This document shows, in pieces, positions 21,872 through 38,022 of a DNA stretch of 64,000 bases (position 1 is its first letter; each line of letters opens with the position of its first letter). The DNA is taken from assembly GCA_002422025.1 (NCBI GenBank), contig DISV01000005.1:136834-200833 (forward strand), given 5' to 3'. Position numbers and translations under genes: made by a program. The notes under the pieces are model-generated. The model was not told where the DNA came from. It saw nothing but the letters and a program-made list of their open reading frames with translations, and searched no databases. Source of the stretch: Patescibacteria group bacterium UBA6201 (GTDB taxonomy: Bacteria; Patescibacteriota; Minisyncoccia; Phycocordibacterales; UBA918).

Positions 21872-21897
21872 ATCTTTCTGGGTTAGCTCTATTAGAT

Positions 21898-22152: not shown

Positions 22153-22210
22153 GGTGAGGATGTGAGAACTTTTTATATAAAAGAAAAGACCCCTTGATGT
22201 TATCGTTGGG
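22153..22210. repeat. intergenic repeat copy B, with upstream TATAAAAATGGAAGTACTCTTGTGGTG motif from 22130
   Basis: Matches copy A. The upstream motif recurs at 49160-49190. Confidence 0.7.
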
Positions 22211-22241
22211 GCCTTGTGTAGGCTGTGTCGACAATGGTGTG

Positions 22242-22436: not shown

Positions 22437-22515
22437 AGTAGTCCTCCGTTGACAAAAGTGTAGGGTCTGGTTCAGGAAGAACAATAGCACACATAGTGTG
22501 CTATGTCAAATATGT

Positions 22516-22528
22516 TCCGCGGGCAGGA
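22516..22528. repeat. attL: 13-bp direct repeat of the tRNA-Asn 3' end (TCCGCGGGCAGGA)
   Basis: Identical to 36429-36441, which is the T-stem/acceptor 3' strand of tRNA-Asn. Marks the left boundary of the AT-rich element. Confidence 0.65.
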
Positions 22529-22823
22529 ATTTCTCTCTTACAGAGCAGTACACCTTTTGGATTTTCTTTTCACAAGCTCAAGAAAATCTCAAAAGGTCTT
22601 CGAATCCTGACACAACAGTCCCCCGGACTGTTGTTCCCGCGGAGCATTAAAAGTAAAGACCACACTTGCGTGTGGCCTAAACTTTTATATGCTCCGCTGG
22701 TTGGATACATTTAGAACTCTTAACTGGAGTCAAATAAGGCAAGATTTTATATTTTCAGGAGTGTCTAATGTATTTCCTGATCTGGTACTTGAAAACTAAT
22801 TTCTATCTTTTAGTAAGCAATTC

Positions 22824-24308: not shown

Positions 24309-24346
24309 TAGCGTACATATGATGTAAACTAAAGTAAAGAATAATT

Positions 24347-25846
24347 ATGGTAAATGTCATAAAAAAGAAAAGGCTTCCTTGGATCGATGACCCTAGAAAA
24401 GGTGTCTATATCGATGATGGTGCACTTTTTGTTTTACACTTAATCGCCAATGGTCTCCTTGCTCGCATTGGTTCTGATAATTTTGCGTTGACTATGAGAA
24501 CTCCGATCGAATGGAGTCACGAAGAAATGCTCAAATTTCTGATCAAGGTTTCAGAAGAATATGGTTTTGAGCTTTCTGACTTCTCTACAATGACCTATGC
24601 CTTCACTGAGGATTACGAGAAAGATCTTTTTGATCCCAAGACTAGAACAATACTCCCTGAATACGAGGATGTGTTTCAAAAGTATTTAAAAGAAGTAGAT
24701 GAATTTGAAAAATACAAAAAAGATAATGGTCTTGAGGATCACGGTCCTTTACCGCCTACAAAGGGTAAGAAATTTTATTTACCGCCACAGCTTCCTAAGG
24801 TTTACGAAGGTGGTTATAAGTGGGCACTTGATCAGATTGAAGCTGATACCGAAAAAGGAAAGCTTTTTAAGCGAATTTTTGATGATCAGTTTGGATTAGA
24901 GGATCTGGAACAGATTTTTAAAATGAATCACGTTATTTTAGCGTGGAATGAACCAGAAGACTCTGACAATTATTATCAAAAACAAATAACCGATTCCATT
25001 ATTCACTGGACCTCCTTCAGCGTTGATCCTCCAGAGAGGATAAGGAAGCAGATGCTTAAAGATGTTAATGCTTACTTGAAACTATTTATGACTGATAAGC
25101 TTGGTCCAAATAGAGGCAACAGGAGGGCTCGAGGTGCGTCTGTTATGGAAAGTAGAAACATATACACCTTCAAGAAGCACAAGGATATGTTTCTTGAATA
25201 TTTGGTTGATATGAAAAATCAATTTGGGAATGATCTGACATTTACCGATCCTTTTGATGAGTATCCACTTGAGTCAGATACCGATGCAGAAGAAGTAAAA
25301 GAACGATATAAAAATAGAAAGTTTCTCTTTCTTCATACTCTTTTTGCCTTTGAATATATGGGATGTATAAGAATCCGAGGTCTTGGCAGTAACTGGGATT
25401 GGCGTCGTGATGATCCTACGCAATACGAAGTTGGCTTAACTGTGATCAATCTACAAAAAGCAGTTGATCCTATAGGTGGCAATCAATCAGTAAAATCTAT
25501 CGATCCAATTGTGGTTATAGAAAAAGGTAAGGGTTATATAAAGCTCCACAAGAACGGTCAAAAAATACCGATTGGCACAATTACCAGTAGAAAGTTTCGA
25601 TTAGTAAATATTCTCATTGATCCGTTAGGAACTGCTCGAACTGTAGATAGTATTTTTGATGCTATCAGATTGGAAAAAGACGACGCTGATTCTAGACTTA
25701 AAGATCCATATTTAGCAAAACAAAGGAAAGTTGACATCATTAACTTTGCTTTAAAGGAACTACAGAAGACCAAAGGCTTGAAAGGAAAAGTATCAATCAA
25801 ATACCTCAAAGATAATCAAAGTGCCTATCTTGAACTAACCGTCTAA
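24347..25846 (+). CDS. hypothetical protein (orphan)
   Basis: 499 aa with no recognisable motif. Divergently arranged with the SEC-C gene from a shared 38-bp spacer. Confidence 0.4.
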   Translation: MVNVIKKKRLPWIDDPRKGVYIDDGALFVLHLIANGLLARIGSDNFALTMRTPIEWSHEEMLKFLIKVSEEYGFELSDFSTMTYAFTEDYEKDLFDPKTRTILPEYEDVFQKYLKEVDEFEKYKKDNGLEDHGPLPPTKGKKFYLPPQLPKVYEGGYKWALDQIEADTEKGKLFKRIFDDQFGLEDLEQIFKMNHVILAWNEPEDSDNYYQKQITDSIIHWTSFSVDPPERIRKQMLKDVNAYLKLFMTDKLGPNRGNRRARGASVMESRNIYTFKKHKDMFLEYLVDMKNQFGNDLTFTDPFDEYPLESDTDAEEVKERYKNRKFLFLHTLFAFEYMGCIRIRGLGSNWDWRRDDPTQYEVGLTVINLQKAVDPIGGNQSVKSIDPIVVIEKGKGYIKLHKNGQKIPIGTITSRKFRLVNILIDPLGTARTVDSIFDAIRLEKDDADSRLKDPYLAKQRKVDIINFALKELQKTKGLKGKVSIKYLKDNQSAYLELTV

Positions 25847-26112
25847 GAGGGTTCAAAAACTTATTCAAAAAATAGTTTGAAGGTCGTAATCAAAACGGCC
25901 TTATTTTTATTTACTTTTCTTGTCTATCAGGCAGGAAAAACCCTCTCAAACCCTCTACTAACCTTGAAGTTAGAGGGTTTATTACATTTGGAATGTGCAA
26001 ACGAATCAAGAAAAAGAAATTACTGAGGTGAACCAGAGCAATGATAACCTCATTGGTTTCTTTTCGATTTTGATGCAGGTCGATAAAAGAATTAATCCTC
26101 ATAACTATACCG

Positions 26113-27267
26113 ATGAATCGGAAGAAGAAGATGATTGATACCATAATCCTAACAATTCCGAGAGAACAGATCAGAATGCTTAGTCCAGACGGACGGTATA
26201 TTCCAGCGTGGGATCTACATAGCAAAACAAGCAACTACACAAAGTATGTTAAGAACCCGACTCCGTATGATCGCAAAAATGAAATATATAGACCTCGACT
26301 GACAGGAGTGAAAAGAAGAGTTCGTGGAAACTTTTACAGCTCATTTCTTAAAATTGAGTTTTCAGTACCTAAACTAATATTCGGCAATAACTTAAACGAG
26401 CTTAGCGAATCAGACTTCTCGAAAGTACTCAACACTCTTAAGGAGCGACTAATTGAAGTAGGAGTCTTAGTCTCTGATAAAGACTTACGACAAGCCACTG
26501 TCTCCACTGTTCACTTTGGGAAAAACATTGAGCTTCGTGACGGATATACAGCTTCCTTTGTCACAAAAGAATTATCTAAGATCAATATCAACAAAAAATT
26601 TGATCTAAGTAAAACTAGTTTTAGAAATGACGGTCAGTCCTTGCAAGGGTATACGATGGCACATTCAGTTGTCTTTTATGACAAGGTGTCTGATTTAGGA
26701 AAGAGTAAAAAAAGAGCTATCGACAAAGACCAAGTTCCAAATCAGTTGAGTCTCTTCTCTGGCATTAAAGCAAATACACCAAGTCTTGAGATTCTAAGAT
26801 TTGAGGTCCGCTTGTGTCAGAAGCAAAAGCTTAATGGTGTCTTACGAAAAATTGGTTTCGAAAAAGATCCAACTTTTGAAGATATTTTTACAGCTGAACT
26901 ATGGAAGAAGGCACTCCATTTTTATTGGGATCAAATGATCAAGAACGAAAACTTGTTTCTTTTCAGCAACAAAACTGAGCCTAAGGAACTATTGCAGGAC
27001 CTACTTAAAAAGCACCCGAACTCAAAGGCAAAAGAATATATATTTCTCGTTGGGCTTGATGCTTTATGCAAAAGCAAAGGCGGAATTAGAGATCTGAGAT
27101 CAATTTTAGAAACAAAAGTCAGTCAACGAAGTTGGTACAGGATCAATGATGGAATCAAAAGGCTTAATAAGGCCACTAGTAAAAGGAAGGTCTCTGACTG
27201 GGTTAAGCAAATTGAGGATAGTTTGAATGAGTTCAAGCCGTATCGCATAAAACCAAAACCACCTTAA
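26113..27267 (+). CDS. Rep_trans-like rolling-circle replication initiation protein
   Basis: 384 aa. VVFYDKVSDLGKSKKRAIDKDQ resembles the conserved riYDK...E segment of Rep_trans initiators (PF02486). It lies on an element that also encodes an excisionase and an integrase. Confidence 0.4.
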   Translation: MNRKKKMIDTIILTIPREQIRMLSPDGRYIPAWDLHSKTSNYTKYVKNPTPYDRKNEIYRPRLTGVKRRVRGNFYSSFLKIEFSVPKLIFGNNLNELSESDFSKVLNTLKERLIEVGVLVSDKDLRQATVSTVHFGKNIELRDGYTASFVTKELSKININKKFDLSKTSFRNDGQSLQGYTMAHSVVFYDKVSDLGKSKKRAIDKDQVPNQLSLFSGIKANTPSLEILRFEVRLCQKQKLNGVLRKIGFEKDPTFEDIFTAELWKKALHFYWDQMIKNENLFLFSNKTEPKELLQDLLKKHPNSKAKEYIFLVGLDALCKSKGGIRDLRSILETKVSQRSWYRINDGIKRLNKATSKRKVSDWVKQIEDSLNEFKPYRIKPKPP

Positions 27268-27307
27268 AGTCAGATCTCATTCTTATTAAAAATTAATCAC
27301 CTGAAAT

Positions 27308-27622
27308 ATGGCATTACTTAAAAACTATTTTGAAAAGTGTAAGCAAGACTCACCGATTGTCTATGTAATAACAGCAGAGATGGTCCAAAATCTTGCAGAA
27401 GCAAACCTCGATAGAAAACTGACAGAAAAAGAAATTGAAAGACTTCATTACTCAATGCTTGAAGCTGACAAGCCTAGCTGGCATTTGATGGAGTTTATGA
27501 TCGCTTCCGCAGAGGATGCGATGGATGAAGAAAATAACGATTGGTCAGGTATAGATGAGCTGTACGAGAATCGTAAACATTCGTACTGGCTTGGAGATTA
27601 TTCAATAGGTAACGAAAAATAA
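27308..27622 (+). CDS. hypothetical protein
   Basis: 104 aa and acidic. No motif. Confidence 0.35.
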   Translation: MALLKNYFEKCKQDSPIVYVITAEMVQNLAEANLDRKLTEKEIERLHYSMLEADKPSWHLMEFMIASAEDAMDEENNDWSGIDELYENRKHSYWLGDYSIGNEK

Positions 27623-27626
27623 AACT

Positions 27627-28040
27627 ATGAAAAAGAACAATAAAAATAAAGGTGCTGTAGTACGAAATATATCAAGCAGAATAAAAGATATTTTTAGAGA
27701 TTATGAAAGACAAAAACTTTCTGAATCGATCAAGCAAGGTCTAAGGATGAAAAGGATTCGTGAGTTTGAGTTTCAGTTTGGTCTTGCAAAACACGATGAA
27801 TTACCGCAAGAGTTTGTGGATCGAGTTAAGAAATATAAGGCTATACTTAAAGATGTTGAAAAATCTACGGTCGAAGAAGCCCTTGATAACTTTAAGCGAG
27901 ATATGTATCCGCATACAGAACTAATTGTTTGGGAATGTATAGCAAAACATTATCAAAAAATTACAAAGGCCAATCCAGACTTAACACCGAAAGAGAAGAA
28001 GGATCTCTTCACAGAAGCCTTAATTCACACACTGGGATAG
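27627..28040 (+). CDS. hypothetical protein
   Basis: 137 aa with a basic N-terminus. Its start is 5 nt after the previous stop. Confidence 0.35.
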   Translation: MKKNNKNKGAVVRNISSRIKDIFRDYERQKLSESIKQGLRMKRIREFEFQFGLAKHDELPQEFVDRVKKYKAILKDVEKSTVEEALDNFKRDMYPHTELIVWECIAKHYQKITKANPDLTPKEKKDLFTEALIHTLG

Positions 28041-28086
28041 TGAATTTGTCTTGTAAAGCATTGTCAAGTATAATAACATTAAGCCT

Positions 28087-28269
28087 ATGAAAAACGAGGA
28101 AGAATTTTACACCGCTGAGGAGTTGGCTCAAAAACTCAAGGTCAATATTATGACTATCTACCGCTATATTAAAGCTGGCAAGATAAAGGCGTATAAGTTT
28201 GGGAAAGAGTACAGGGTCGAGTTGAAGGATTTCGAAGCATTTCTCAAAAAACACAAATCAAACAAGTAA
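28087..28269 (+). CDS. xis: excisionase-family (MerR-like HTH_17) DNA-binding protein
   Basis: 60 aa. YTAEELAQKLKVNIMTIYRYIKAGKIKAYKFGKEYRV matches the excisionase HTH consensus. It sits immediately upstream of the PLD-helicase gene. Confidence 0.6.
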   Translation: MKNEEEFYTAEELAQKLKVNIMTIYRYIKAGKIKAYKFGKEYRVELKDFEAFLKKHKSNK

Positions 28270-28270
28270 T

Positions 28271-31200
28271 ATGAAATTATCAAAAATAATCGATAACAAT
28301 AGAAAAACTTTACTCGACACTTTTGTCGATGTAAGTGAAAAGCATAAAGAACTATCAATAGCTACTGGCTACTGGGACCTTGAAGGAATGAGAATGCTTC
28401 TTCCGCAATTGAGAAACTATGAAAAAATACGACTCCTAATTGGTCGAGAACCTCTAATTCCTCGACACCAACTTGAGCAACCCGAACCAGATTATCCTGA
28501 TCAAGACTTTAAATTTGATTTAACTCATATCAAACCAGAGTCTGAACTTAAAGACCTTGTAACAGAGATCAAACAATGGATTGAATCTGGCAAACTAGAG
28601 GTCCGTGTTTACCGCAAAAACTTCTTGCACGCCAAGTGTTTTATCTTCGGATCATATGATTCTGATGAAGCTATTGGGATTATTGGATCTTCAAACTTCA
28701 CAAAGAATGGCCTGACTCATAATACCGAACTCAATGCTCTGGAATCAGATCATCGTGTAGTTGTTTTTGAACCTAAGAATAAAGAACAAGAAGTTGGCCA
28801 CTTGTACTGGTTTGATAGTTTTTGGAATGATGAAGGAACTGAAAAATGGAATGAGCAATTTGGATCAATTCTTGAATCGTCACCTGTTGGAGATAAACTT
28901 TTCAGTCCATATGAGACGTACATAAAAACACTTTACGAGCTGTACAAAGAAGAAATTATCGACGATGAGTTAGTGGTCAATGAGAGCGAAAATGGACGTA
29001 CTCTTTTCGATTTCCAACACAAAAATACCCAAGCTCTACTGCGAAGACTCAGGAAGTATAAAGTTGCAATGCTTTCTGACTCTGTTGGTCTTGGTAAAAC
29101 TCTGACTGCTATCAATGTGATTAAGCAGTATTTAGAAGACGAAGAAGGTAAAAAACGAGTTGAAATTATATGTCCTAAATCTTTGGTCCAGCAATGGGAA
29201 AAGGAAATGGCTACTGAGGGTATTTATAATCACACTCCTATCACTCTTCAGAACCCTAATGAAATTGAGAAAAAGCGAGAACTTGATGCAATTGCAAGTG
29301 TTACTTTGTTTGTGATCGATGAATCTCACAACCTCCGACAAACTAATGGAAAACGTTTTAAGCAAGTGCTTGATTGGGTACGAGAAAATCCAAAAGCTCA
29401 CGTTCTTTTGCTTACCGCTACCCCGATCAATAATCAATTGAGTGATCTTACCAACCAGATTCTACTTGGAACTGGTGGTGATGCTGACGGTCTAAGACTG
29501 ACTGTAGCTGATGAGAATAATCAGACTGAACAAAGAAACTTCTATCAGATTGTTGAGAACCTCAGAAAGAAGATCAATCAGGACCTCAAGCGAGATGGAA
29601 AAATAGACTATAACCACATTAAACAAGTGATGACTCCAATCATTAGAACGTTTGTGGTTCGACGTACCCGACAAGGAATTGAACAAGAATATGGGTATTT
29701 GATGATCAATGGCGAAAAGAAAGTCTTTCCAGTAGTAGTACCTGAAGTTCTTGAATACGTACTTGATAACAAGCTCGTAAAAGAACTTAAATCAGTCACT
29801 TCTGAATCGATTCCGCTTGATGAAATATACGAGCTTGATCCTGAGCAAGTAGTTGAAAAATGTAAGGATCTTAAGCACCCAATAGATCAAATTTCTAATG
29901 TATCTAAGAAACTTGATAAAGAAAAACTGGATGGCGAAAATCCGATGTATTTTGTATTCCAACTTATATTAATGCTCGGATTCATTCCTTATCGATGGAT
30001 GATGTATAGGGCTGATTATTATGGAAAGACACGAGATGAAATTAAGGAACTGAAGATCAGTTCAGATAAAAGTAAAAAGCTACTACTTCAGCTTGGTATT
30101 TTCGGCATTCTTCGGACCGTATTCCTAAAACGAATGGAGTCTTCAGTGAGTGCCCTAGCTTCTTCGTTGGAAACCTATTCATACAAGCTTGATCTATTCG
30201 AGAAAGGCGTCAATGAAGGAAAAATTGTATCAATGGATGATCTTGATGCTCTTGAATCAAGCCTTGGAGACGAGGATGTTGAGGTGGATGAGAAAGCTCT
30301 TGAAGAGCATACTCTCGATGAGGTTGATGATAAAAACTACGAGCTTGAATCACTTAAGAAAGATATTCAGCGAGAAAAGCAATTAGTATCTCTAATTACT
30401 GCTCAACTTAAGATTCTTAATAAGGATGATTCTAAAATCAAGTGTTTTGCAGATCAGCTCAACACTTTACGAAAGCGAGATCCAAATCAAAAAGTACTCG
30501 TGTTCTCTTACTTTGCAGACACCATTAAATATCTCGAAGAGAATATTGGTAAGTATTGTGATTTTCTTAACGAAGAAAACACTGGCTTTGTATCTTCTAA
30601 AAACAAAGGTGATTCTGAAAATATGGCTTCTCGTTTTTCTCCAAAATCTAAAAAGTATCAGCTTAAAGATGGCGAAACTGAACTTCAGTATCTATTCTCA
30701 ACAGATGTATTGTCTGAGGGTCAAAACCTTCAGGATTCAGGCATCTTAGTGAACTATGATCTTCACTGGAATCCAGTGCGTATGATTCAAAGGAATGGTC
30801 GTGTAAACCGTCTAGGATCTGAATTTGAAGAGGTGTATATCTACAATATGAAGCCAGAGCAAAAGCTTGATACTTATCTCGAATTGGTAAAAAGACTTGA
30901 AGGAAAGATCAATTTGATCAGAAATACCGTAGGTACTGATACTCCAGTTCTTGATGAACCAGAAAACCCTATTGAGTATACAGACTCAGTTACCGATATT
31001 TACAGTTCTGATGTTGAAACGAGATTGAAGGCTCTACAAGACGCTGAAAAAGCTTCGGACTTCTTGCTTTCAGAAGATGAGTTTGTGGTTGATCTGAAAA
31101 AGTTTAACTCAAACGAAAGCTATCCAAAGGAATATAAAGAGAAGGTCTATCAGATGTCAGATGGCAAGTGGGCTGTATGTCCAAAACAAGAAGCTCGAGG

Positions 31201-31756
31201 TCAAGAACGGCCTGAGGTGTTTGGTCTCGCACGACTCTATTCAGAAGCAGAGTCAGATCCTATTGGTTATCAGTTCGCAAAAATAGATCGCACTGGTTCG
31301 CAAATTCAAGCTGTATCTCAATTACAAGCTCTTGAATGGCTACGAACGACACAAGAAGACAACGATCGAGTGATGGATAAGATTACTGCTGATAAGGTGG
31401 CCGTTAAAGATCAACTGGGATCAAAGGTTATCCAATACTTTGGGCAAGAAGAAACTGGATCACTTATTGGGCAAGAAAATAATATCCTCCGATTCCTTTA
31501 TGAAAATGGATATGCACAAGAAGAGATTGATCTGGTCCGAGACGTCTTTAAAACGACAAACATATTCTACAAACGTGAAGTAGATAAGTTGAAGCGGAAT
31601 GTAATGCGACAGAAAAATAAAGGTGAAATGTATCAGGATGATCTACGAGAGCTAGTAAAACTAGCTAAGGAAATTGATAAGAATACGAATGATGAAGAAT
31701 CATTAACACCCAAGAAAGTTGAAAGTGTGTTGTTTTATGTAAATCGAAATGAGTAA
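28271..31756 (+). CDS. PLD (HKD) nuclease fused to SNF2-family helicase (DISARM DrmC+DrmD-like fusion)
   Basis: The N-terminal PLD domain carries HAKCFIFGS...GSSNFT (HxK...GSxN). Helicase motif I is LSDSVGLGKT, motif II is VIDESHN, and the C-terminal helicase domain includes LSEGQNLQ...QRNGRVNRLGS. 1161 aa. Confidence 0.8.
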   Translation: MKLSKIIDNNRKTLLDTFVDVSEKHKELSIATGYWDLEGMRMLLPQLRNYEKIRLLIGREPLIPRHQLEQPEPDYPDQDFKFDLTHIKPESELKDLVTEIKQWIESGKLEVRVYRKNFLHAKCFIFGSYDSDEAIGIIGSSNFTKNGLTHNTELNALESDHRVVVFEPKNKEQEVGHLYWFDSFWNDEGTEKWNEQFGSILESSPVGDKLFSPYETYIKTLYELYKEEIIDDELVVNESENGRTLFDFQHKNTQALLRRLRKYKVAMLSDSVGLGKTLTAINVIKQYLEDEEGKKRVEIICPKSLVQQWEKEMATEGIYNHTPITLQNPNEIEKKRELDAIASVTLFVIDESHNLRQTNGKRFKQVLDWVRENPKAHVLLLTATPINNQLSDLTNQILLGTGGDADGLRLTVADENNQTEQRNFYQIVENLRKKINQDLKRDGKIDYNHIKQVMTPIIRTFVVRRTRQGIEQEYGYLMINGEKKVFPVVVPEVLEYVLDNKLVKELKSVTSESIPLDEIYELDPEQVVEKCKDLKHPIDQISNVSKKLDKEKLDGENPMYFVFQLILMLGFIPYRWMMYRADYYGKTRDEIKELKISSDKSKKLLLQLGIFGILRTVFLKRMESSVSALASSLETYSYKLDLFEKGVNEGKIVSMDDLDALESSLGDEDVEVDEKALEEHTLDEVDDKNYELESLKKDIQREKQLVSLITAQLKILNKDDSKIKCFADQLNTLRKRDPNQKVLVFSYFADTIKYLEENIGKYCDFLNEENTGFVSSKNKGDSENMASRFSPKSKKYQLKDGETELQYLFSTDVLSEGQNLQDSGILVNYDLHWNPVRMIQRNGRVNRLGSEFEEVYIYNMKPEQKLDTYLELVKRLEGKINLIRNTVGTDTPVLDEPENPIEYTDSVTDIYSSDVETRLKALQDAEKASDFLLSEDEFVVDLKKFNSNESYPKEYKEKVYQMSDGKWAVCPKQEARGQERPEVFGLARLYSEAESDPIGYQFAKIDRTGSQIQAVSQLQALEWLRTTQEDNDRVMDKITADKVAVKDQLGSKVIQYFGQEETGSLIGQENNILRFLYENGYAQEEIDLVRDVFKTTNIFYKREVDKLKRNVMRQKNKGEMYQDDLRELVKLAKEIDKNTNDEESLTPKKVESVLFYVNRNE

Positions 31757-34700
31757 TCAAGTATTAGACAAAATTAAAGATATTCAAAAAGAACTCAATG
31801 AGCTTGAGGTTAAAAAAGACCTGCCTCAATCACAAAGAGTAATTGCTTCAATTGTCAGACTTCTTGATGATTCTGTTTCCGTTGATGATCAATCTCTCTT
31901 TCAGCTTTTTACTGATAGTGACGGAAAGATCAGAGCTAATGCTTCTTGGTTCTATGAAGACTCAGTAATGACTGACAGAAAAGCGACGTATAAAGTACAC
32001 CCTCAAAACAACCTGAATCTTGATATTAAGCTCTACGGTATTGCTAAGCCTTCAAAGCGAACGATTGCTTGGGCTCAGTCACTAACGCCAAACTTTGAAG
32101 ACGAACCTTTCAACAAGAACTTCAATGTTGGAATTGATTTTATTGTTCCAAAGAGTGCTGATCGGATCATTGTGGTCCTAAGTAATAACTGGGTTATCCG
32201 AACGCTTGAACTTAAAGGAAAGCTTACCGTTACATTCCAAGAGATCCTCGCACGTTGGGCTGAAATAAAAAACTTTGATAATAAAACTGAGCTTCACAAT
32301 ATCCTTTGGGAAAGTTTCGACATTCAGCCTCTCAACAAGAAGTTTTACTCTGGAATTAGTGAACGCTTTACGCTTCTTCGTCAGTATCTTGTTAAGGAAA
32401 AGGTGTTTGATGAAAAGCACGCTTCTTTATTTGCAAACCGACTCCTTGGTCGAGTTATCTTTTGTTGGTTCTTGGACAAAAAAGGGATCATTAATCCTGA
32501 TCAGAAGTATTTTGACTCTGAATCTTTTGAGAACGACAATGAATACTACAAAACTAAACTGGAAAGACTTTTCTTTAGTGTTCTAAACACTCCAATTTCT
32601 GATCGAGAAAGAAAACTCGAAGGCGAAGAGACTCTGTTTGGAAAGGAAGGAAAAACAACATTATTTTCAGTTGATGATGTAACACCATTCCTAAACGGTG
32701 GTCTTTTTGAAGCACGAGAGAATGATCTCTACAACGATTCAAAACTCTCATTCCCGAAGAATTACTTTGACGATCTGTTTGGGTTTCTTTCAGGCTACAA
32801 CTTCACGACTGATGAAAGTACAAGCCAATTCCAACAAGTAGCGATTGATCCAGAGATGCTTGGTCGTATCTTTGAAAACCTTCTTGCTGAAATGACAGAA
32901 GAGACTGGCGAACAAGCCCGAAAAGCCAAAGGTGCTTTCTATACGCCCCGAGAGATCGTGGATTATATGTGCAAGGAATCTCTCAAGGAATATCTAAAGA
33001 CTAAGATTGAGCACGATGAGCAGTTGGATCAACGCCTGTATCAGCTTATAGACGCTCCCGATAAAGACTTTCAGGACCAAGACCATAATTGGCGAAGGGA
33101 CTGGAAACCTTACAAAGCGGACATTCTGAAGGCTCTCGATGAACTGAAGGTCCTTGATCCAGCCTGTGGGTCTGGAGCTTTTCCAATAGGTATGCTCCAG
33201 CTTCTAGTGCGTGTATATGAGCGTTTAGAGGCTCGTTTTGACTCGTATAAGACGAAATTGGGCATTATTGAGAAGAATATCTATGGTGTAGATATAGAGC
33301 CAATGGCAGTTGAAATTGCACGGCTTCGAACGTGGCTTTCGATTATCGTTGACGAAGAATCTGACTCTAAAAAGATCAAACCTCTTCCAAACCTAGAGTT
33401 CAAATTCATTTGTGCTAACTCGCTTATAGATCTCGATAAAAACGGAAGTAATACATTTGGTGATGATCCAGAACTGCAAGAAAAGCTTGCGTCTATTCGT
33501 GATGGTTATTTCAATACCGAGAGTTTGAATAAGAAGAAGAAACTACGAGGTGATTATGTAAAATTGGTAACTCAAGGCGAAGGTTTGTTTGGAGAATCCA
33601 AGAAATCAAAACAATTGAAGACTTATAGACCGTTTGATAATGAAGCTCAAGCTGATTTCTTTAATCCTAGGTTTATGTTTGGAACTGATTCTTTTGACAT
33701 TATTATTGCAAATCCGCCTTACGTAAGACAAGAGAAGTTCACTCATTTAAAAGAGTCTCTTAAAAAAGAGTACGGAGATTTCTTTAATGGCAGATCCGAT
33801 TTGTATACATTTTTTATCAAGCTAGGATTTCATCATCTAAAAGTAGGCGGTGTATTTTGCTACATTACGTCTAACAAGTTTTTAGTTAGAGGGTATGGAA
33901 AAAATACAAGAAAATTACTTACGGAAGATTCAGTATTAAAGAAACTTGTAAACTTTGGTGAGCTACCTGTTTTTCAGGCATCTGTAGATTCAATAATTAT
34001 ACTGGCTCAAAAAGAAAAGCCAGAAAAAGAAGATGAAGTATGTTTTGTTCAGGTAAAACAGGCAAACGAAATTGAGAATCTTTATAACTTTTTCGAACAA
34101 GCTAAGGAGTGTTTGAATTTAAGTTCTTTAGATAGTGGAGAATGGTCTCTTCAAGATAAGGAAAAAATAAAGATATTAAACAAAATAAAAGGTAATGAAT
34201 TAACACTTGAGAACTATTTTGAGCAAAAAAGTTTTGCTGGAATTAAGACGGGTTATGATGATGCGTTTGTGATTGATGCCAACACAAAAGAAAAACTCGT
34301 TGCTGAAGATCCTCAGAATTTAGATCTAATTAAACCTTGGTTAAGAGGAAAAGATGTTAAAAAATGGAAAGTTGACTATAAGAATTTATATCTTATATAT
34401 ATCCCACTCAATAAAATTGATATTGAAGAATACCCATCGATCAAAAATCATCTTTTAAAATTTAAGGAAAAATTATCTAAGAGAGCAACAAAACAAAAGT
34501 GGTATGAAATTCAACAGCCACAAGAAAAGTTCACAGAGCTTTTTGAAGCTCCAAAGATAATTTACCCAGATTGTGCAAAAGAAATGCGAGCATCATTCGA
34601 CTTAACAAAGTCATATGGCACGATGGCTATGTATTTCTTGCCTTATGATCCATTGATACTTGGGTTGTTAAACAGTAGGCTTTTCGACTGGTATTCTCGA

Positions 34701-34964
34701 ATGACTTTCGCAACATTTGGAGATCCGTGGAAAGGAGGTCGAATCATTTTTAAGACAATTTATATGTCTAAGTTTCCTCTTCCTGATTTGCACGGTCCTG
34801 AGATAGAAAGGATAAAGAGCAATGTAGAAATCATTATTAAAAACATCGATCAAGGTGATAAAAACCAAAATGCTAATCTCGAGAATCAGATAAATGAAGA
34901 CGTAATGACTCTGTACAGACTAGATGAAAATGAGAAAAACATTTTACGTACTTATAAATTATGA
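31749..34964 (+). CDS. N6-adenine DNA methyltransferase, PglX/MmeI (Eco57I)-like gamma class with C-terminal target-recognition region
   Basis: Motif X is GAFYTPREIVDYM, motif I is VLDPACGSGAFP, and motif IV is IIIANPPY. The N-terminal region has PFLNGGLFE and the C-terminal region has AGIKTGYDDAFVI. Its start overlaps the preceding gene by 8 nt. Confidence 0.85.
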   Translation: MSNQVLDKIKDIQKELNELEVKKDLPQSQRVIASIVRLLDDSVSVDDQSLFQLFTDSDGKIRANASWFYEDSVMTDRKATYKVHPQNNLNLDIKLYGIAKPSKRTIAWAQSLTPNFEDEPFNKNFNVGIDFIVPKSADRIIVVLSNNWVIRTLELKGKLTVTFQEILARWAEIKNFDNKTELHNILWESFDIQPLNKKFYSGISERFTLLRQYLVKEKVFDEKHASLFANRLLGRVIFCWFLDKKGIINPDQKYFDSESFENDNEYYKTKLERLFFSVLNTPISDRERKLEGEETLFGKEGKTTLFSVDDVTPFLNGGLFEARENDLYNDSKLSFPKNYFDDLFGFLSGYNFTTDESTSQFQQVAIDPEMLGRIFENLLAEMTEETGEQARKAKGAFYTPREIVDYMCKESLKEYLKTKIEHDEQLDQRLYQLIDAPDKDFQDQDHNWRRDWKPYKADILKALDELKVLDPACGSGAFPIGMLQLLVRVYERLEARFDSYKTKLGIIEKNIYGVDIEPMAVEIARLRTWLSIIVDEESDSKKIKPLPNLEFKFICANSLIDLDKNGSNTFGDDPELQEKLASIRDGYFNTESLNKKKKLRGDYVKLVTQGEGLFGESKKSKQLKTYRPFDNEAQADFFNPRFMFGTDSFDIIIANPPYVRQEKFTHLKESLKKEYGDFFNGRSDLYTFFIKLGFHHLKVGGVFCYITSNKFLVRGYGKNTRKLLTEDSVLKKLVNFGELPVFQASVDSIIILAQKEKPEKEDEVCFVQVKQANEIENLYNFFEQAKECLNLSSLDSGEWSLQDKEKIKILNKIKGNELTLENYFEQKSFAGIKTGYDDAFVIDANTKEKLVAEDPQNLDLIKPWLRGKDVKKWKVDYKNLYLIYIPLNKIDIEEYPSIKNHLLKFKEKLSKRATKQKWYEIQQPQEKFTELFEAPKIIYPDCAKEMRASFDLTKSYGTMAMYFLPYDPLILGLLNSRLFDWYSRMTFATFGDPWKGGRIIFKTIYMSKFPLPDLHGPEIERIKSNVEIIIKNIDQGDKNQNANLENQINEDVMTLYRLDENEKNILRTYKL

Positions 34965-36466
34965 AATCAATAATCTTTGCCAGAGTATCAGATAAAAAAC
35001 AGGACTCAAACGAGGCTCAGGTGTCTCGTATTTCTGAATACATAAGAGCCAAAGATCTTCAGGTTTGGAAAACATATGAGCTTGAAGAATCCTCTACTCG
35101 TGGCGATCGAGAAAAATTTCAGGAAGTTATTCAAGAGATCGAGAAGAGCAAAGAACCAATTGCTCTGGTAGTTGATACTGTAGACCGACTTCAGCGAAGC
35201 TTTAAGGAGTCAGTGGTCCTTGATGAGTTTAGGAAGTCTGGAAAGCTTGAGATCCATTTTTATCGTGAAAATCTGGTCCTGCACCAAAACTCAAACAGTG
35301 CCGATCTTATTCGTTGGGATATAGCTGTTATGTTTGCTCGAAGCTATGTTCTTCAACTTAGTGACAACGTAAAGCGAAAACAAGAGCAAATGAGGCGTAG
35401 TGGTGAATGGCCAAGTAAGCCACCAATTGGATACAAAAGTATCTATGATGAAAATGGCACAAGGACCGATATTATTCCTGATCCAGAGACAGCTCACTTT
35501 GTCGTAAAAATGTTTGAGCTTTACGCTACAGGCAATTATTCCATCAAAACACTTCGTGATCATATGATCAAAGTTGGAATGCGAGGCACTTCTGGCAAGA
35601 AGATTGCTCCAAGTATGATCGATAACATTTTGAACAATACGTTTTACTACGGTGTTGCGTATTCAAGGACCAAAAAGATTTCATACGATCACAAGTACAA
35701 ACCGCTAGTTTTTAAAGAGCTTTTTGATAAGTGTCAGGAAGTAAAGAAGGGTTGGAATAAGAAACCATTTAAATATGCTTCAAAACCTTTTGTCTTGAGA
35801 GGGTTAGTTCGTTGTGCCAAATGTGGCTGTGCAATGAGTCCAGAGATTAAGAAAGGAAAATATGTCTATTACAGCTGTACCAATGCCAGAAAAGATCTCT
35901 GTACAGATAAGGTCTACATACCCGAAAAAGACCTCCTGAAGCCAATACACGAGGTTCTAGAGGCTTTTAACAGCATTCCTCAGAAGACTATTGATGAAGT
36001 AGTTCTTGGGCTCAAGAAGTCAAACGAGTCAAAGAGTCTGTACCACCTGAACGCCATAGATGGTCTTCGGTCCGAATACGACAAAACTCAAGACAAGATC
36101 GATCGAATGATGGACCTACTCATTGAGGGTAGTATTACTAAAGATGACTATGACAGAAAGTTGAAAGAGCTTAAGTCAAAACAGCACGATCTCAATATAC
36201 AAATTGAGGACCACACTAAGGCAGACGAAAACTACTATATTACTGCTTCTACAGTGTTAAATTTGGCTAAAAGTGCATTGACGCTATTTGAAAGTTCCGA
36301 AGTGCAAGAAAAAAGAGCTATGCTCAATTATCTACTTCAGAACTGCGTCGTAAATGGAAAAAAGCTAGAGTTTTCAATACGATCTCCGTTTAACCATATA
36401 CTAGAATTGCACAATCAACCTACTGGGCTCCGCGGGCAGGATTCGAACCTGCGACCAATCGATTAA
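34961..36466 (+). CDS. large serine recombinase (integrase)
   Basis: The resolvase catalytic domain has FARVSDKKQ (Ser nucleophile) and VDTVDRLQRS. A recombinase domain and a zinc ribbon (CAKCGCAM...YYSCTNARKDLC) follow. An ATGA overlap couples it to the MTase stop. Its last about 40 nt run into the tRNA-Asn gene. Confidence 0.8.
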   Translation: MKSIIFARVSDKKQDSNEAQVSRISEYIRAKDLQVWKTYELEESSTRGDREKFQEVIQEIEKSKEPIALVVDTVDRLQRSFKESVVLDEFRKSGKLEIHFYRENLVLHQNSNSADLIRWDIAVMFARSYVLQLSDNVKRKQEQMRRSGEWPSKPPIGYKSIYDENGTRTDIIPDPETAHFVVKMFELYATGNYSIKTLRDHMIKVGMRGTSGKKIAPSMIDNILNNTFYYGVAYSRTKKISYDHKYKPLVFKELFDKCQEVKKGWNKKPFKYASKPFVLRGLVRCAKCGCAMSPEIKKGKYVYYSCTNARKDLCTDKVYIPEKDLLKPIHEVLEAFNSIPQKTIDEVVLGLKKSNESKSLYHLNAIDGLRSEYDKTQDKIDRMMDLLIEGSITKDDYDRKLKELKSKQHDLNIQIEDHTKADENYYITASTVLNLAKSALTLFESSEVQEKRAMLNYLLQNCVVNGKKLEFSIRSPFNHILELHNQPTGLRGQDSNLRPID

Positions 36467-36499
36467 CAGTCGACCGCTCTACCGCTGAGCTACCGCGGA
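36425..36499 (-). tRNA. tRNA-Asn (anticodon GTT)
   Basis: Cloverleaf folded by hand. The acceptor stem is TCCGCGG/CCGCGGA, the anticodon loop is CTGTTAA, the T-arm is GCAGG-TTCGAAT-CCTGC, and the discriminator is G. Confidence 0.8.
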
Positions 36500-36592
36500 A
36501 TATCCTTGATCTGCGATATTAGATCAAGTAGGCACATTCTACAGAAAAACTGAATTGTTTCAACTTTAACGATGGTGTATATTACGCATTCT

Positions 36593-36665
36593 GGGCCCAT
36601 AGTATAGTGGTAGAACGAATCCATGGCATGGATTAGGTCCGAGTTCGATTCTCGGTGGGTCCACC
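36593..36665 (+). tRNA. tRNA-Ala (anticodon GGC)
   Basis: The acceptor stem GGGCCCA/TGGGTCC contains a G3:U70 pair (the Ala identity element). The anticodon loop is ATGGCAT, the T-arm is CCGAG-TTCGATT-CTCGG, and the discriminator is A. Confidence 0.6.
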
Positions 36666-36708
36666 TCGCGAAAGGGGCTGGCGCAAGCCAGCCCCTTTCG
36701 CGAGGTGG
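36661..36708. repeat. 22-bp perfect inverted repeat (CCACCTCGCGAAAGGGGCTGGC-gcaa-GCCAGCCCCTTTCGCGAGGTGG) overlapping the tRNA-Ala 3' end
   Basis: Read directly. An unusually long perfect stem, with no T-run after it. Confidence 0.75.
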
Positions 36709-36863
36709 AAGGCGGAACGATGTATTTTTCTCAACTCCTAGAAAAAAAGACGAGTGAGCTGGGGGCGAGAACACTTAGTAGATTTGGAGGCAAAGCCGAA
36801 CAAATATACTTAGTGATTTGTGTCCACTAAATAATGAAGAATCGGTCATGTTAAAATCCGGTT

Positions 36864-37526
36864 ATGGAAGTCAGAATTGAACCAAGTTGGAAGAAGATCT
36901 TGAAGGAAGAATTTGAGAAAGAATATTTTAAGAATCTGTCAGAAAAGGTCCGTCAGGCATACTTAACTGACTCCGTCTTCCCTTCTCCCCAGTTTGTTTT
37001 CAATGCATTTAATCTTTGTCCGTTTGATAAAGTAAAAGTGGTAATTATTGGGCAGGACCCATATCACGGGCGTGGGCAGGCACACGGACTGTGCTTTTCA
37101 GTACAAGATGGTGTCCCTGTCCCGCCATCATTAAAAAATATCTATAAAGAGATAAAGAGTGATCTTGGTATCGAATTGCCAACTTCTGGCAATCTCGAAC
37201 GCTGGGCCAAGCAGGGTGTTTTGTTACTTAATGCTACTTTAACAGTGAAGGAGGCGGCAGCTGGCGCACATCAAGGTTGGGGCTGGGAGGAATTTACTGA
37301 TGCTGCTATTAAAAAGGTTTCAGAGGAAAAAGAAGGAGTGGTCTTTATGCTTTGGGGTCGCTATGCGCAGAATAAATCGGCGCTTATCGACGAGTCCAAA
37401 CATTTGATATTGAAAGCACCACACCCTTCCCCACTCTCGGCTCATAATGGCTGGTTTGGCTCCAGGCACTTCAGTCAGGCTAATACTTATCTAAAATCAC
37501 AAGGAAAGGACCCGATTGACTGGTAA
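36864..37526 (+). CDS. ung: uracil-DNA glycosylase (family 1)
   Basis: GQDPYHG water-activating motif, LLLNATLTV, and the HPSPLS leucine-loop region. Confidence 0.85.
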   Translation: MEVRIEPSWKKILKEEFEKEYFKNLSEKVRQAYLTDSVFPSPQFVFNAFNLCPFDKVKVVIIGQDPYHGRGQAHGLCFSVQDGVPVPPSLKNIYKEIKSDLGIELPTSGNLERWAKQGVLLLNATLTVKEAAAGAHQGWGWEEFTDAAIKKVSEEKEGVVFMLWGRYAQNKSALIDESKHLILKAPHPSPLSAHNGWFGSRHFSQANTYLKSQGKDPIDW

Positions 37527-37602
37527 ATTTGACATTTAGTAATTTAATTGTTAAGTTTTGGGTTGAATTTAGTTTTGCAAAATAGATAAATGAAAGGAGA
37601 GC

Positions 37603-38022
37603 ATGGTGTTCATGCCATCGTTCAGTCTACCCCTAGGTTTCTTTAGTCGGAGAAATCCACAGGAGAGATCTCGTCCTGCAGATCGCTTGAAGATGTTATT
37701 GGAGGAATGCGGTTATCATATATTTGACATGGATGTGGATAGACAACTACCCATCCATTTTGACAATATGGTCGCTGTCCATTCCGACGATACATCTTCA
37801 GTGATCTGGATATATCGAAAATATGACGATGTGTTCATCGTTCGTCCATTCGTCGATAGTGCTGCTCTAAGTCAGCTCTCAGAACGTTTGCTCGGCAAGA
37901 ATCTGAATGGAATCGTTCTGAGATATGTCAGGAATTTGATTCTTTGTGAAGACGATGATGATTGGTTGTCATGGCTTCCCGAAGACTCAAAGGAAGACGC
38001 AAGAATGGTCGGACATCTCTGA
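37603..38022 (+). CDS. hypothetical protein
   Basis: 139 aa. Acidic C-terminus. No motif. Confidence 0.35.
   Translation: MVFMPSFSLPLGFFSRRNPQERSRPADRLKMLLEECGYHIFDMDVDRQLPIHFDNMVAVHSDDTSSVIWIYRKYDDVFIVRPFVDSAALSQLSERLLGKNLNGIVLRYVRNLILCEDDDDWLSWLPEDSKEDARMVGHL

What the first reader, a model, noticed from the sequence alone, without database searches (positions are those of the whole stretch)
28271..34964. PLD-nuclease::SNF2-helicase fusion plus PglX-like N6-adenine methyltransferase: candidate undescribed DISARM-like / split Type-ISP-like defence module
Two long, translationally coupled genes, with the second start overlapping the first by 8 nt.

Gene 1 fuses an N-terminal PLD/HKD nuclease domain (HAKCFIFGS...GSSNFT) to a complete SNF2-type helicase (GLGKT, DESH, QRNGRVNRLGS).

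Gene 2 is a gamma-class N6-adenine MTase of the PglX/MmeI/Eco57I lineage. It has GAFYTPREIV, DPACGSGAF, NPPY and PFLNGGLFE. Its C-terminal AGIKTGYDDAFVI region is the kind of target-recognition half seen in Type IIG enzymes and BREX PglX.

Known systems that use these parts are arranged differently. DISARM class 1 has DrmC (PLD) and DrmD (SNF2) as separate genes and also needs DrmA and DrmB. Type ISP and Type III enzymes use Mrr or PD-(D/E)xK nucleases rather than PLD.

A PLD-SNF2 single polypeptide plus a stand-alone PglX-like MTase, with no DrmA/DrmB/PglZ/BrxC partners, is a minimal methylation-guided translocase-nuclease architecture. I do not recognise it as a described system. It rides on a mobile element directly in front of the integrase.
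Basis: partly seen in the sequence, partly recalled or inferred. Interest (0 to 1): 0.85.

Follow-up and report, generated by a model that had tools for sequence, protein, structure and literature searches.

The report
PLD-helicase plus methylase restriction cassette
This is a real two-gene restriction-modification-like module, a PLD-nuclease/SNF2-motor protein paired with a Type IIG-family adenine methylase, carried on a small integrase-bearing cassette in a Patescibacteria genome; the gene pair had already been noticed in Lactococcus plasmids and in an inversion survey, and I found no experimental test of it.

Summary
Gene 1 (28271-31756) is a PLD/HKD-SNF2 fusion whose catalytic motifs are invariant in 118 homologues. 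Gene 2 (31749-34964) is a Type IIG-family gamma N6-adenine methylase with a TaqI_C target-recognition domain (TRD). The two genes overlap by 8 nt.

The pair is a self-contained unit. It is adjacent in all 15 loci with full-length homologues of both proteins, from Patescibacteria to an actinobacterial-type locus and Lactococcus plasmids (35% identity across both proteins). No DrmA/DrmB, PglZ, BrxC or DUF499 partner is present. It is therefore not DISARM, BREX or MANTIS.

It is not undescribed. Van Mastrigt et al. 2018 (plasmid pLd8, orf33/orf34) and Milman et al. 2023 reported the same architecture and gave the same interpretation. I found no experimental test.

- Gene 2 is not a bare PglX-like methylase. 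It has a family-specific N-terminal domain with weak restriction-endonuclease-fold similarity. Its D-E-K triad is intact here but kept in only 24% of the family.
- The operon has four genes: an excisionase-like HTH, gene 1, gene 2 and a large serine integrase whose 3' end overlaps tRNA-Asn.

The most likely mechanism is an ATP-dependent, methylation-guided restriction system with a hypervariable TRD. Novelty is modest.

The parts
28046..28074 (+). Promoter-like site (TTGTCT-17-TATAAT) at the left edge of the cassette. It overlaps the tandem octamers TTGTAAAG / TTGTCAAG, a possible operator.
   Evidence: The consensus scan gives 10 of 12 matches. The block TTGTAAA..ATTGT.AAGTATAAT is invariant across six cassettes that are otherwise about 70% identical (alignment A1). 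Promoter function is inferred.
28087..28269 (+). 60-aa HTH_17 (excisionase / MerR-like) DNA-binding protein. The gene ends 1 nt before the gene 1 ATG.
   Evidence: Pfam HTH_17 2.7e-14. PHROGs 'excisionase and transcriptional regulator' 1.7e-11. It is present in the Patescibacteria cassettes (A1; L009 and L010). It is absent upstream of the pair in L015, L016 and L017.
28271..31756 (+). Gene 1: PLD/HKD nuclease - SNF2 ATPase fusion, 1161 aa. It has a single HKD motif (H120, K122, GSSN 139-142), Walker A K276, DESH 350-353, motif VI 840-847, and an uncharacterised C-terminal region of about 260 aa.
   Evidence: Pfam. PADLOC best hit is 'HKD+Snf2' at 4.5e-45 over aa 5-901. Motifs are invariant in 118 homologues. 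More than 2400 homologues are found. No Pfam domain is found for aa 892-1161 or for the inter-lobe insert.
28346..28756 (+). PLD (HKD) nuclease domain of gene 1, aa 26-162.
   Evidence: PLDc_2 5.2e-9. RE_NgoFVII N-terminal PLD domain 4.2e-5, 23.3 bits against a 23.8-bit cutoff.
31749..34964 (+). Gene 2: Type IIG-family protein, 1071 aa. Order of domains: N-terminal family-specific domain, helical spacer, gamma-class N6-adenine methyltransferase (D470PACGSGAF, N655PPY), TaqI_C-type target-recognition domain.
   Evidence: Pfam. PADLOC REase_MTase_IIG 5.4e-167. All NCBIfam PglX models score far below cutoff. The closest solved methyltransferases are CamA and BseCI at about 1e-26 and PglX at 2e-8.
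31878..32282 (+). N-terminal alpha/beta domain of gene 2, aa 44-178. N115, E117, D118, D130, R151 and T162 are at least 95% conserved. The window copy has P134..D138...E154-L-K156.
34089..34961 (+). Hypervariable target-recognition region of gene 2, aa 781-1071.
   Evidence: Identity is 20-29% in twelve of thirteen compared loci (60% in L006), including L001 where aa 1-230 are 100% identical. Clusters at 90% identity hold 21 members for gene 1 but only 2 for gene 2.
34961..36466 (+). Large serine recombinase (integrase), 501 aa. The ATGA start overlaps the gene 2 stop.
   Evidence: Resolvase, Recombinase and Zn_ribbon_recom domains. PHROGs integrase 6.6e-65. The catalytic ARVS motif is present. 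It lies downstream of the pair in L003, L006, L008, L009, L010 and L013 and is internally deleted in L001.
36424..36500 (-). tRNA-Asn(GTT). Its 3' 43 nt overlap the end of the recombinase ORF, marking the right end of the cassette.
   Evidence: ARAGORN and Rfam at 74 bits. The same overlap with tRNA-Asn occurs in L001, L006 and L009, and with tRNA-His in L008 and L013.

Best explanation
Window 28044-36500 is a compact integrative cassette in a Patescibacteria/Saccharibacteria-type genome. It holds an excisionase-like HTH gene, gene 1, gene 2 and a large serine integrase, and it abuts tRNA-Asn. Its cargo is one two-gene, ATP-dependent restriction-modification system of the pLd8 orf33/orf34 type.

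Proposed mechanism (inferred):
1. Gene 2 is the specificity and modification subunit. Its swappable C-terminal TRD reads a short, probably asymmetric site. Its gamma-class NPPY methyltransferase makes m6A there and so marks self DNA.
2. Gene 1 is the restriction subunit. Each chain has one HKD motif, so two chains must pair to form a single PLD active site, as in Nuc, BfiI, SauUSI and MtsD.
3. The SNF2 motor hydrolyses ATP to translocate or remodel DNA.
4. The motor-nuclease is licensed by gene 2 bound at unmethylated sites, so cleavage is directed to foreign DNA.
5. The N-terminal domain of gene 2 is most likely a restriction-endonuclease-fold relic. Its conserved job is probably coupling to gene 1 or to DNA rather than catalysis. 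The window copy still has a D-E-K triad, so a second nuclease activity cannot be excluded.

Shown: anatomy, domain identities, motif integrity, obligate gene linkage, TRD hypervariability and horizontal transfer of the cassette.
Inferred: methylation, the protein-protein coupling, ATP-driven cleavage and anti-phage function.
For: Domains and intact motifs.

Linkage from the gene 1 side. A gene 2 homologue lies immediately downstream in 10 of 10 Patescibacteria-type loci that have enough downstream DNA. The same holds in L015 and L016, on Lactococcus pJM1F and under four further lactic-acid-bacteria plasmid hits. Start-stop overlaps of 8-14 nt are preserved.

Linkage from the gene 2 side. Two homologues carrying the N-terminal domain were picked without regard to context. 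Both lie downstream of a PLD-SNF2 gene; it is directly upstream in L018 and frameshifted with short ORFs between in L019.

Co-divergence. Both proteins are 35% identical over their full length to the Lactococcus pair.

No other partners. L016 holds the pair alone between housekeeping genes. The ten window neighbours have no relevant hits.

Conservation pattern. PLD and SNF2 motifs are invariant, whereas the D-E-K triad of gene 2 is kept in only 22 of 93 sequences.

TRD hypervariability.

Specificity switching in relatives. Inverted TaqI_C genes occur in L017 and L019, and small serine recombinases in L017, L018 and L019. Programmed inversions are reported for this architecture in PMC9881135.

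Mobility. The cassette is 92% identical in DNA between the window and L001, against 66-70% for flanking genes. Low GC is confined to the cassette in L001. The genomic contexts differ.

Mechanistic precedent. In the four-gene MANTIS system the PLD-SF2 dimer MtsD is a methylation-guided effector whose PLD His and Walker A are needed for restriction (bioRxiv 10.64898/2026.09.23.753747).
Against: No experiment on this family was found in nine literature searches.

Related characterised systems with a PLD or SNF2 component need extra ATPases: DrmA/DrmB in DISARM, and MtsA/MtsB in MANTIS. Two genes may therefore not suffice, or the mechanism may differ.

The window's gene 2 keeps D138/E154/K156 on a hairpin with the canonical PD-(D/E)xK geometry. 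It could cut DNA itself.

The invariant N115/E117/D118/D130/R151 cluster is unexplained.

Interaction between the two proteins is inferred only from gene linkage.

No methylome data were available.
Confidence: 0.6

Rival explanations
1. Gene 2 is a complete, autonomous Type IIG restriction-modification enzyme with its own PD-(D/E)xK nuclease, methylase and TRD. Gene 1 is a separate or auxiliary effector, for example a back-up nuclease-translocase that degrades DNA after a first cut, or an independent SauUSI-like enzyme.
Confidence: 0.2
2. It is a reduced or variant class 1 DISARM system, or a BREX-related / MANTIS system, whose other components are encoded elsewhere or among the unannotated upstream ORFs.
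For: Gene 1 hits DrmD, BrxH, HmaA, DpdE and PbeA models. Gene 2 hits DrmMI and PglX models. Five upstream low-GC ORFs (22824-28040) have no assigned family. Two of them (26113-27267 and 27308-27622) recur upstream in several loci.
Against: All NCBIfam scores are far below cutoff: DrmD 149 against 610 bits, and PglX 99 against 500. No DUF1998/DrmB, YprA/DrmA, PglZ or DUF499 appears in any of the loci examined. The upstream ORFs are absent in L001, L002, L004, L005, L008, L010, L015 and L016. PADLOC requires all five Drm proteins for DISARM I (PMC9252829). BR systems are defined as DUF499-centred (PMC12839542).
Confidence: 0.05
3. The pair serves the mobile element rather than host immunity. It would act as an addiction or exclusion module that stabilises the integrase cassette or bars competing elements, or as an epigenetic phase-variable regulator.
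For: In Patescibacteria the pair is embedded between the excisionase-like gene and the integrase in one operon. There is clear horizontal transfer. Recombinases recur near the family.
Against: This reading is not exclusive of restriction, because the biochemistry would be the same. The pair also occurs without any recombinase, between housekeeping genes (L016).
Confidence: 0.15

Closest known systems
Lactococcus plasmid pLd8 orf33/orf34 (putative Type II(G) R-M; van Mastrigt et al. 2018, PMC6098607) and the homologous pair on L. cremoris pJM1F
   Same: The architecture is the same: PLD+SNF2+Helicase_C protein followed by an overlapping Eco57I/N6_Mtase/TaqI_C protein. Both window proteins align over their full length with the pJM1F pair at 35% identity, including the N-terminal domain of gene 2 and the C-terminal region of gene 1. 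The functional proposal is also the same.
   Different: The lactococcal loci add an inverted spare TRD gene and a small Mpi-type serine invertase for specificity switching. The window has a single TRD, a large serine integrase, an HTH_17 gene and a tRNA junction. The lactococcal gene 2 lacks D138 and K156 (N and H instead). I compared the window with pJM1F, not with pLd8 itself. The paper says strains JM3, SK110 and N41 carry a similar operon.
[quoted passage not shown] 2023 (PMC9881135)
   Same: The two-gene arrangement is the same, and it is listed as a recurrent genomic context.
   Different: Those loci were reported because they undergo programmed inversion. No inverted TRD copy or long inverted repeat exists in the window. 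I did not compare their sequences with the window.
MANTIS / Gao_RL / BREX-related Type-2 system (MtsABCD)
   Same: An N-terminal HKD nuclease is fused to an SF2 ATPase effector and works with an N6-adenine methylase that marks short asymmetric sites. The effector dimer forms one PLD site.
   Different: MANTIS needs a DUF499 AAA+ ATPase (MtsA) and a small co-regulator (MtsB, written DUF3780 in PMC12839542 and DUF3870 in the MANTIS preprint) for methylation and restriction. Neither is present here. The methylase here is a Type IIG-family protein with its own TRD and N-terminal domain.
Class 1 DISARM (DrmA, DrmB, DrmC, DrmD, DrmMI)
   Same: The domain content overlaps: PLD (DrmC), SNF2 (DrmD) and a Type IIG-like adenine methylase (DrmMI). 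Gene 1's second-best PADLOC hits are DrmD models.
   Different: There is no DrmA or DrmB. PLD and SNF2 are fused. All scores are far below the family cutoffs.
Type ISP enzymes (LlaGI, LlaBIII) and Type IIG/IIL enzymes (MmeI, DrdV, BpuSI)
   Different: Type ISP enzymes are single polypeptides with an Mrr-type nuclease and a different SF2 motor. Type IIG/IIL enzymes need no ATPase. Here the motor and a PLD nuclease sit on a separate chain.
CglI / NgoAVII ATP-dependent Type II systems and SauUSI (from my own knowledge, plus for SauUSI)
   Same: A PLD-family nuclease is coupled to an SF2 ATPase for ATP-dependent cleavage. Gene 1 weakly matches the NgoFVII PLD domain.
   Different: CglI/NgoAVII use a separate cytosine methylase and a B3-like DNA-binding domain on the R protein. 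SauUSI is modification-dependent (Type IV) and has no methylase.

Membership tests
pLd8 orf33/orf34-type PLD-SNF2 + Type IIG-like methylase pair | Gene A carries PLDc_2, SNF2 and Helicase_C domains in one polypeptide. | tested here: met
   Pfam. Full-length 35% identity to the pJM1F homologue.
pLd8 orf33/orf34-type PLD-SNF2 + Type IIG-like methylase pair | An adjacent, co-oriented gene B is an Eco57I/N6_Mtase protein with a TaqI_C TRD and no recognised Pfam nuclease domain. | tested here: met
   Pfam. 35% identity over aa 66-1027 to the pJM1F homologue. 8-nt overlap.
Class 1 DISARM | All five core proteins are present: DrmA, DrmB (DUF1998), DrmC, DrmD, DrmMI (PMC9252829). | tested here: not met
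   No DrmA or DrmB among the neighbours or in L015/L016. DrmD NCBIfam score is 149 bits against a 610 cutoff. DrmC score is 20.5 against 133.
BREX (types 1-6) | PglZ phosphatase and BrxC ATPase accompany a PglX methylase. | tested here: not met
   No PglZ or BrxC hits. PglX NCBIfam models score 44-99 bits against cutoffs of 400-900.
BREX-related Type-2 / MANTIS (Gao_RL) | A DUF499 AAA+ ATPase (MtsA) and a small co-regulator MtsB (written DUF3780 in PMC12839542 and DUF3870 in the MANTIS preprint) accompany the methylase and the HKD-helicase. | tested here: not met
   Neither domain is found in the window neighbours or in any related locus.
Type IIG restriction-modification enzyme | Methylase and TRD sit in one polypeptide of the Eco57I/MmeI lineage. 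| tested here: met
   Pfam Eco57I, MmeI_Mtase, MmeI_hel (weak) and TaqI_C. PADLOC REase_MTase_IIG 5.4e-167.
Type IIG restriction-modification enzyme | A catalytically competent endonuclease domain is in the same polypeptide. | tested here: inconclusive
   The N-terminal domain gives only weak PD-(D/E)xK-fold matches (Z no higher than 5.3 for the domain model). No sequence match to solved nucleases. The D138/E154/K156 triad is present in the window copy but in only 22 of 93 sequences compared.
Type ISP restriction-modification enzyme | One polypeptide carries an Mrr-type nuclease, an SF2 motor, a methylase and a TRD. | tested here: not met
   There are two polypeptides. The nuclease is PLD, not Mrr.
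Integrative element with a large serine integrase | An intact Resolvase-Recombinase-Zn-ribbon integrase lies at an element end, next to a defined attachment site. | tested here: inconclusive
   The integrase is intact. The element is transferred horizontally. Its 3' end overlaps a tRNA in 6 of 6 loci. However, attL/attR and an empty site were not identified, and no second copy of the tRNA segment is present.

The most novel reading that the evidence does not exclude
The pair is a distinct, not yet classified kind of ATP-dependent restriction-modification enzyme. A dimeric PLD-SNF2 motor-nuclease would be licensed in trans by a Type IIG-derived methylase/TRD subunit whose former nuclease domain has become a coupling module. 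No accessory AAA+ or DrmAB-type ATPase would be needed. In Patescibacteria it would be packaged as a self-integrating xis-R-M-int cassette that uses a large serine integrase to target the 3' ends of tRNA genes.
Probability: 0.4. Interest if true: 0.55.

Novelty: new member of a known kind. Interest (0 to 1): 0.38.

Why it matters
If two genes suffice, this would be the simplest known methylation-guided system that uses a PLD nuclease with an SNF2 motor.

It would then be a tractable comparison point for DISARM and MANTIS. In those systems, how DNA recognition by the methylase is passed to the motor-nuclease is still unresolved. MANTIS cleavage, for example, has not yet been reconstituted in vitro.

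The family is reasonably widespread. The gene 2 type forms about 200 clusters at 50% identity, and gene 1 has more than 2400 homologues. Current tools would most probably report it as a Type IIG enzyme next to an unassigned helicase; I could not run them.

The Patescibacteria version is also a clear example of a small self-transferring defence cassette in a lineage with few characterised mobile elements.

None of this overturns current understanding. The architecture and its probable role are already in print.

Tried and rejected
1. DISARM, BREX and MANTIS membership. Rejected on missing core genes and sub-threshold scores.

2. Programmed inversion of the TRD in the window. No inverted TRD copy or meaningful inverted repeat lies in 20000-38000. 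The recombinase here is a large integrase-type enzyme, not a small invertase.

3. Direct repeats of the tRNA-Asn 3' part as att sites. None found with up to 3 mismatches, nor with the repeat finder. The left attachment site stays undefined.

4. Sequence-level identification of gene 2's N-terminal domain. Pfam at E up to 10 and a profile search of the PDB both found nothing.

6. Domain assignment for gene 1's C-terminal 270 aa and its inter-lobe insert. No Pfam hit.

7. The five upstream low-GC ORFs. Nothing in Pfam, NCBIfam, PADLOC or PHROGs.

8. Phage-borne homologues. Only partial SNF2-level hits.

9. Literature. Nine searches looked for an experimental characterisation or a system name for the pair. 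Only the two descriptive mentions were found. REBASE, DefenseFinder and the PADLOC system-level classifier could not be run.

10. The idea that the cassette carries, rather than targets, the tRNA gene. Considered because the flanks beyond the tRNA differ between genomes. Two different tRNAs (Asn and His) overlap the integrase end in the same way, so targeting is the simpler reading. The question is not settled.

Full report
**1. The observation**

The window has a low-GC block (about 36-37% against about 44%) from roughly 22.8 to 36.5 kb.

- Gene 1 is 28271-31756 (1161 aa) and gene 2 is 31749-34964 (1071 aa).
- The junction reads aATGAGTAAt, an 8-nt overlap.
- Pfam finds PLDc_2 (aa 26-162), SNF2-rel_dom and Helicase_C in gene 1.
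- Pfam finds Eco57I, N6_Mtase, MmeI_Mtase, weak MmeI_hel and TaqI_C in gene 2.
- Gene 1 has one HKD motif only: H120, K122, GSSN 139-142.
- An alignment of 118 full-length homologues keeps FLHAK, IGSSN.T, DSVGLGKT, IDESHNL, TATPINN, TD.LSEGQNLQD and QRNGR.NR at 98% or more. Both the nuclease and the motor are therefore under purifying selection.

**2.

The operon has four genes.

- A 60-aa HTH_17 protein (28087-28269) ends 1 nt before gene 1. It scores 2.7e-14 in Pfam and resembles excisionases in PHROGs.
- A large serine recombinase (34961-36466) starts with an ATGA overlap on the stop codon of gene 2. It has Resolvase, Recombinase and Zn_ribbon_recom domains and an ARVS active-site motif.
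- A promoter-like TTGTCT-17-TATAAT lies at 28046-28074. It sits in a block that is invariant across six otherwise diverged cassettes.
- The last 43 nt of the recombinase ORF are the antisense of the 3' part of tRNA-Asn(GTT), 36424-36500.

**3. Related loci**

Gene 1 has more than 2400 homologues, many of them full length at 56-95% identity. A scan of one genome per species returned 14 loci. Most are labelled Patescibacteria, Saccharibacteria or Paceibacterota MAGs; four carry other labels (two unclassified 'bacterium' MAGs, one Delongbacteria and one Bacteroidales bin). The best, L001, is 98% identical in protein.

Linkage of the two genes:

- In all ten loci with enough downstream DNA, a gene 2 homologue follows directly. 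The same 8-nt overlap is present in L001, L009 and L010.
- L015 has an actinobacterial-type context with CrgA and sortase, and a tyrosine integrase next door. L016 has the pair alone between ilv genes and serA. In both, the proteins are 58-59% and 46-47% identical to the window's, and nothing resembling DrmA/DrmB, PglZ or DUF499 is nearby.
- In the plasmid collection the five best hits are lactic-acid-bacteria plasmids. Their annotation under the match reads 'SNF2-related / DEAD box helicase' plus 'Eco57I / N-6 DNA methylase'.
- On L. cremoris pJM1F both proteins align with the window's over their full length at 35% identity.
- Starting from the methylase side, two homologues carrying the N-terminal domain were chosen only for contig length. 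Both lie downstream of a PLD-SNF2 gene; it is directly upstream in L018, and frameshifted with several short ORFs between in L019.
- A third, more distant relative (L020) lacks the N-terminal domain. It has a separate PLD gene related to gene 1's PLD domain (40% identity) and a separate SNF2 gene that gave no match to gene 1.

The two genes therefore form an old, co-inherited, self-contained unit.

**4. Gene 2 in detail**

It is not PglX. The NCBIfam BREX models score 44-99 bits against cutoffs of 400-900. A REBASE-derived Type IIG model scores 5.4e-167.

*The C-terminal TRD.* It is hypervariable. Residues 781-1071 are 20-29% identical in twelve of the thirteen loci compared (60% in L006), even in L001, where residues 1-230 are 100% identical. 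At 90% identity the gene 1 cluster has 21 members and the gene 2 cluster has 2. This pattern is what one expects of a specificity subunit under diversifying exchange.

*The N-terminal 225 residues.* No Pfam family matches them. They form a sharply bounded family of only about 200 clusters at 50% identity among 1.84 billion representatives. The domain is always at the N-terminus of proteins of about 970-1150 aa.

*Structure prediction.* AlphaFold2 models are confident (pLDDT 88.9 for aa 1-330 and 79.8 for aa 44-178). They show a helix followed by a three-stranded meander.

*Fold searches.*
- Foldseek against the PDB gives nothing significant.
- DrdV tops the search with the longer model.

*The candidate active site.* In the window protein, P134..D138 begins one strand and E154-L-K156 ends the next. 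That is the canonical geometry. Across 93 sequences (92 full-length cluster representatives plus the window protein), however, D138 is kept in 45, K156 in 24 and the whole triad in 22. N115, E117, D118, D130, R151 and T162 are kept in 95% or more.

*My reading.* This is a restriction-endonuclease-fold domain whose classical active site is dispensable in most of the family. Its strictly conserved surface does something else, most simply contacting gene 1 or DNA. Whether the window copy still cuts DNA cannot be decided here.

**5. Mechanism**

The best-supported model is an ATP-dependent restriction-modification system split over two chains.

- Gene 2 reads and methylates a short site.
- Two copies of gene 1 form one PLD site, because there is a single HKD motif per chain.
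- Gene 1 uses its SNF2 motor to reach or process DNA when gene 2 reports an unmethylated site.

The nearest experimental precedent is MANTIS. There, a dimeric PLD-SF2 protein (MtsD) restricts unmethylated DNA only together with the methylase, and the PLD histidine and Walker A lysine are required.

That system, like DISARM, needs further ATPases that are absent here. This is the main reason for caution. All steps beyond anatomy, conservation and linkage are inference.

**6. Comparison with known systems**

| System | Test | Result |
|---|---|---|
| Class 1 DISARM | Needs DrmA, DrmB, DrmC, DrmD and DrmMI (PMC9252829) | Not met |
| BREX | Needs PglZ and BrxC | Not met |
| BREX-related / MANTIS | DUF499-centred (PMC12839542) | Not met |
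| Type ISP | Single-chain enzyme with an Mrr-type nuclease | Not met |

The correct home is the pair first described on Lactococcus plasmid pLd8. There orf33 carries PLD, SNF2 and helicase domains. Orf34 is a REBASE Type IIG methylase in which no restriction domain was found. The authors proposed that the PLD supplies the nuclease and remarked on the likeness to class 1 DISARM (PMC6098607).

[quoted passage not shown] Accordingly, pJM1F has an inverted spare TaqI_C gene and an Mpi-type invertase. L019 also has an inverted TaqI_C gene and a small resolvase. L018 has a co-oriented TaqI_C gene and a small resolvase.

PADLOC already holds an 'HKD+Snf2' model, and it is the best hit for gene 1.

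Nine literature searches found no experimental work on the pair and no system name. I could not consult REBASE or run DefenseFinder.

**7. The cassette**

- Between the window and L001 the DNA from 28044 to about 33720 is 90-92% identical. Flanking housekeeping genes are 66-70% identical in DNA and 34-70% in protein.
- The right flank of L001 is syntenic with window 6.8-13.4 kb, not with the window's cassette site.
- In L001 the low GC is confined to the cassette.
- The left edge of homology is the same, at window 28043-28051, in L001, L003, L006, L007 and L010.
- In all six loci that have a recombinase and a detected tRNA (window, L001, L006, L008, L009, L013), the 3' end of the recombinase overlaps a tRNA on the opposite strand. 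It is tRNA-Asn in four loci and tRNA-His in two.
- The HTH_17 gene travels with this Patescibacteria cassette and is absent from L015, L016 and L017. It is therefore more likely an excision or regulatory factor of the element than a core part of the restriction system.
- In L001 the integrase has lost residues 50-391.

The attachment sites were not identified.

**8. Verdict**

The feature is real, well conserved and very probably a defence or exclusion module. The claim of an undescribed architecture is not: it is a new, divergent member of a two-gene family already noted twice in the literature.

What remains open is its experimental validation, the role of gene 2's N-terminal domain, and the tRNA-associated serine-integrase cassette seen in Patescibacteria. 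Interest is moderate.

Noticed in passing
window 36424-36500 with 34961-36466; also L001 16883-16956, L006 12766-12842, L009 17983-18055, L008 8486-8559, L013 17980-18056: The 3' end of the large serine recombinase ORF overlaps the 3' part of a tRNA gene on the opposite strand in every cassette checked. The tRNA is Asn in four loci and His in two. The last residues of the protein (..GLRGQDSNLRPID) are antisense tRNA sequence. This suggests tRNA-targeted integration by a serine integrase. No att sites or empty site were found.
   Followed up: partly
window 28046-28074: The conserved promoter-like block contains two tandem octamers, TTGTAAAG and TTGTCAAG. They are invariant across six cassettes that are about 70% identical elsewhere. 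This may be an operator for the adjacent HTH_17 protein.
   Followed up: no
window 22824-28040: A second low-GC block holds five ORFs (494, 499, 384, 104 and 137 aa) with no match in Pfam, NCBIfam, PADLOC or PHROGs. Homologues of the 384-aa ORF lie just upstream of the cassette in L003, L006, L007, L009 and L013. The 104-aa ORF accompanies it in L003, L006 and L007. Both are absent in L001, L002, L004, L005, L008, L010, L015 and L016.
   Followed up: partly
L001 16445-16917: In the closest relative the recombinase gene carries an internal deletion: residues 1-49 are joined to 392-500. The methylase TRD has also been replaced. That copy of the cassette appears to be immobilised.
   Followed up: partly
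L017 8763-10230; L018 8406-11801; L019 9102-10683; L020 967-6001: Relatives of the pair show several variants. L017 and L019 have an inverted spare TaqI_C specificity gene plus a small serine recombinase. L018 has the TRD split off as a separate co-oriented gene plus a small resolvase. L018 and L020 have a Fic-domain gene next to the methylase gene. L020 encodes SNF2 and PLD as separate genes.
   Followed up: partly
window 32609-32673 (gene 2 aa 287-308): A short insertion (RKLEGEETLFGKEGKTTLFS) is absent from most homologues. It is the only segment of the N-terminal model with pLDDT below 50. It also interrupts the DNA similarity with every related cassette.
   Followed up: no
window 21819-21876 and 22158-22215: A 58-nt direct repeat (90% identical) lies in the non-coding stretch just left of the low-GC island.
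   Followed up: no
window 36660-36709: A perfect 23-nt inverted repeat with a 4-nt loop, G+C-rich, whose left arm starts within the last bases of tRNA-Ala (36593-36665). It looks like a terminator-type hairpin.
   Followed up: no
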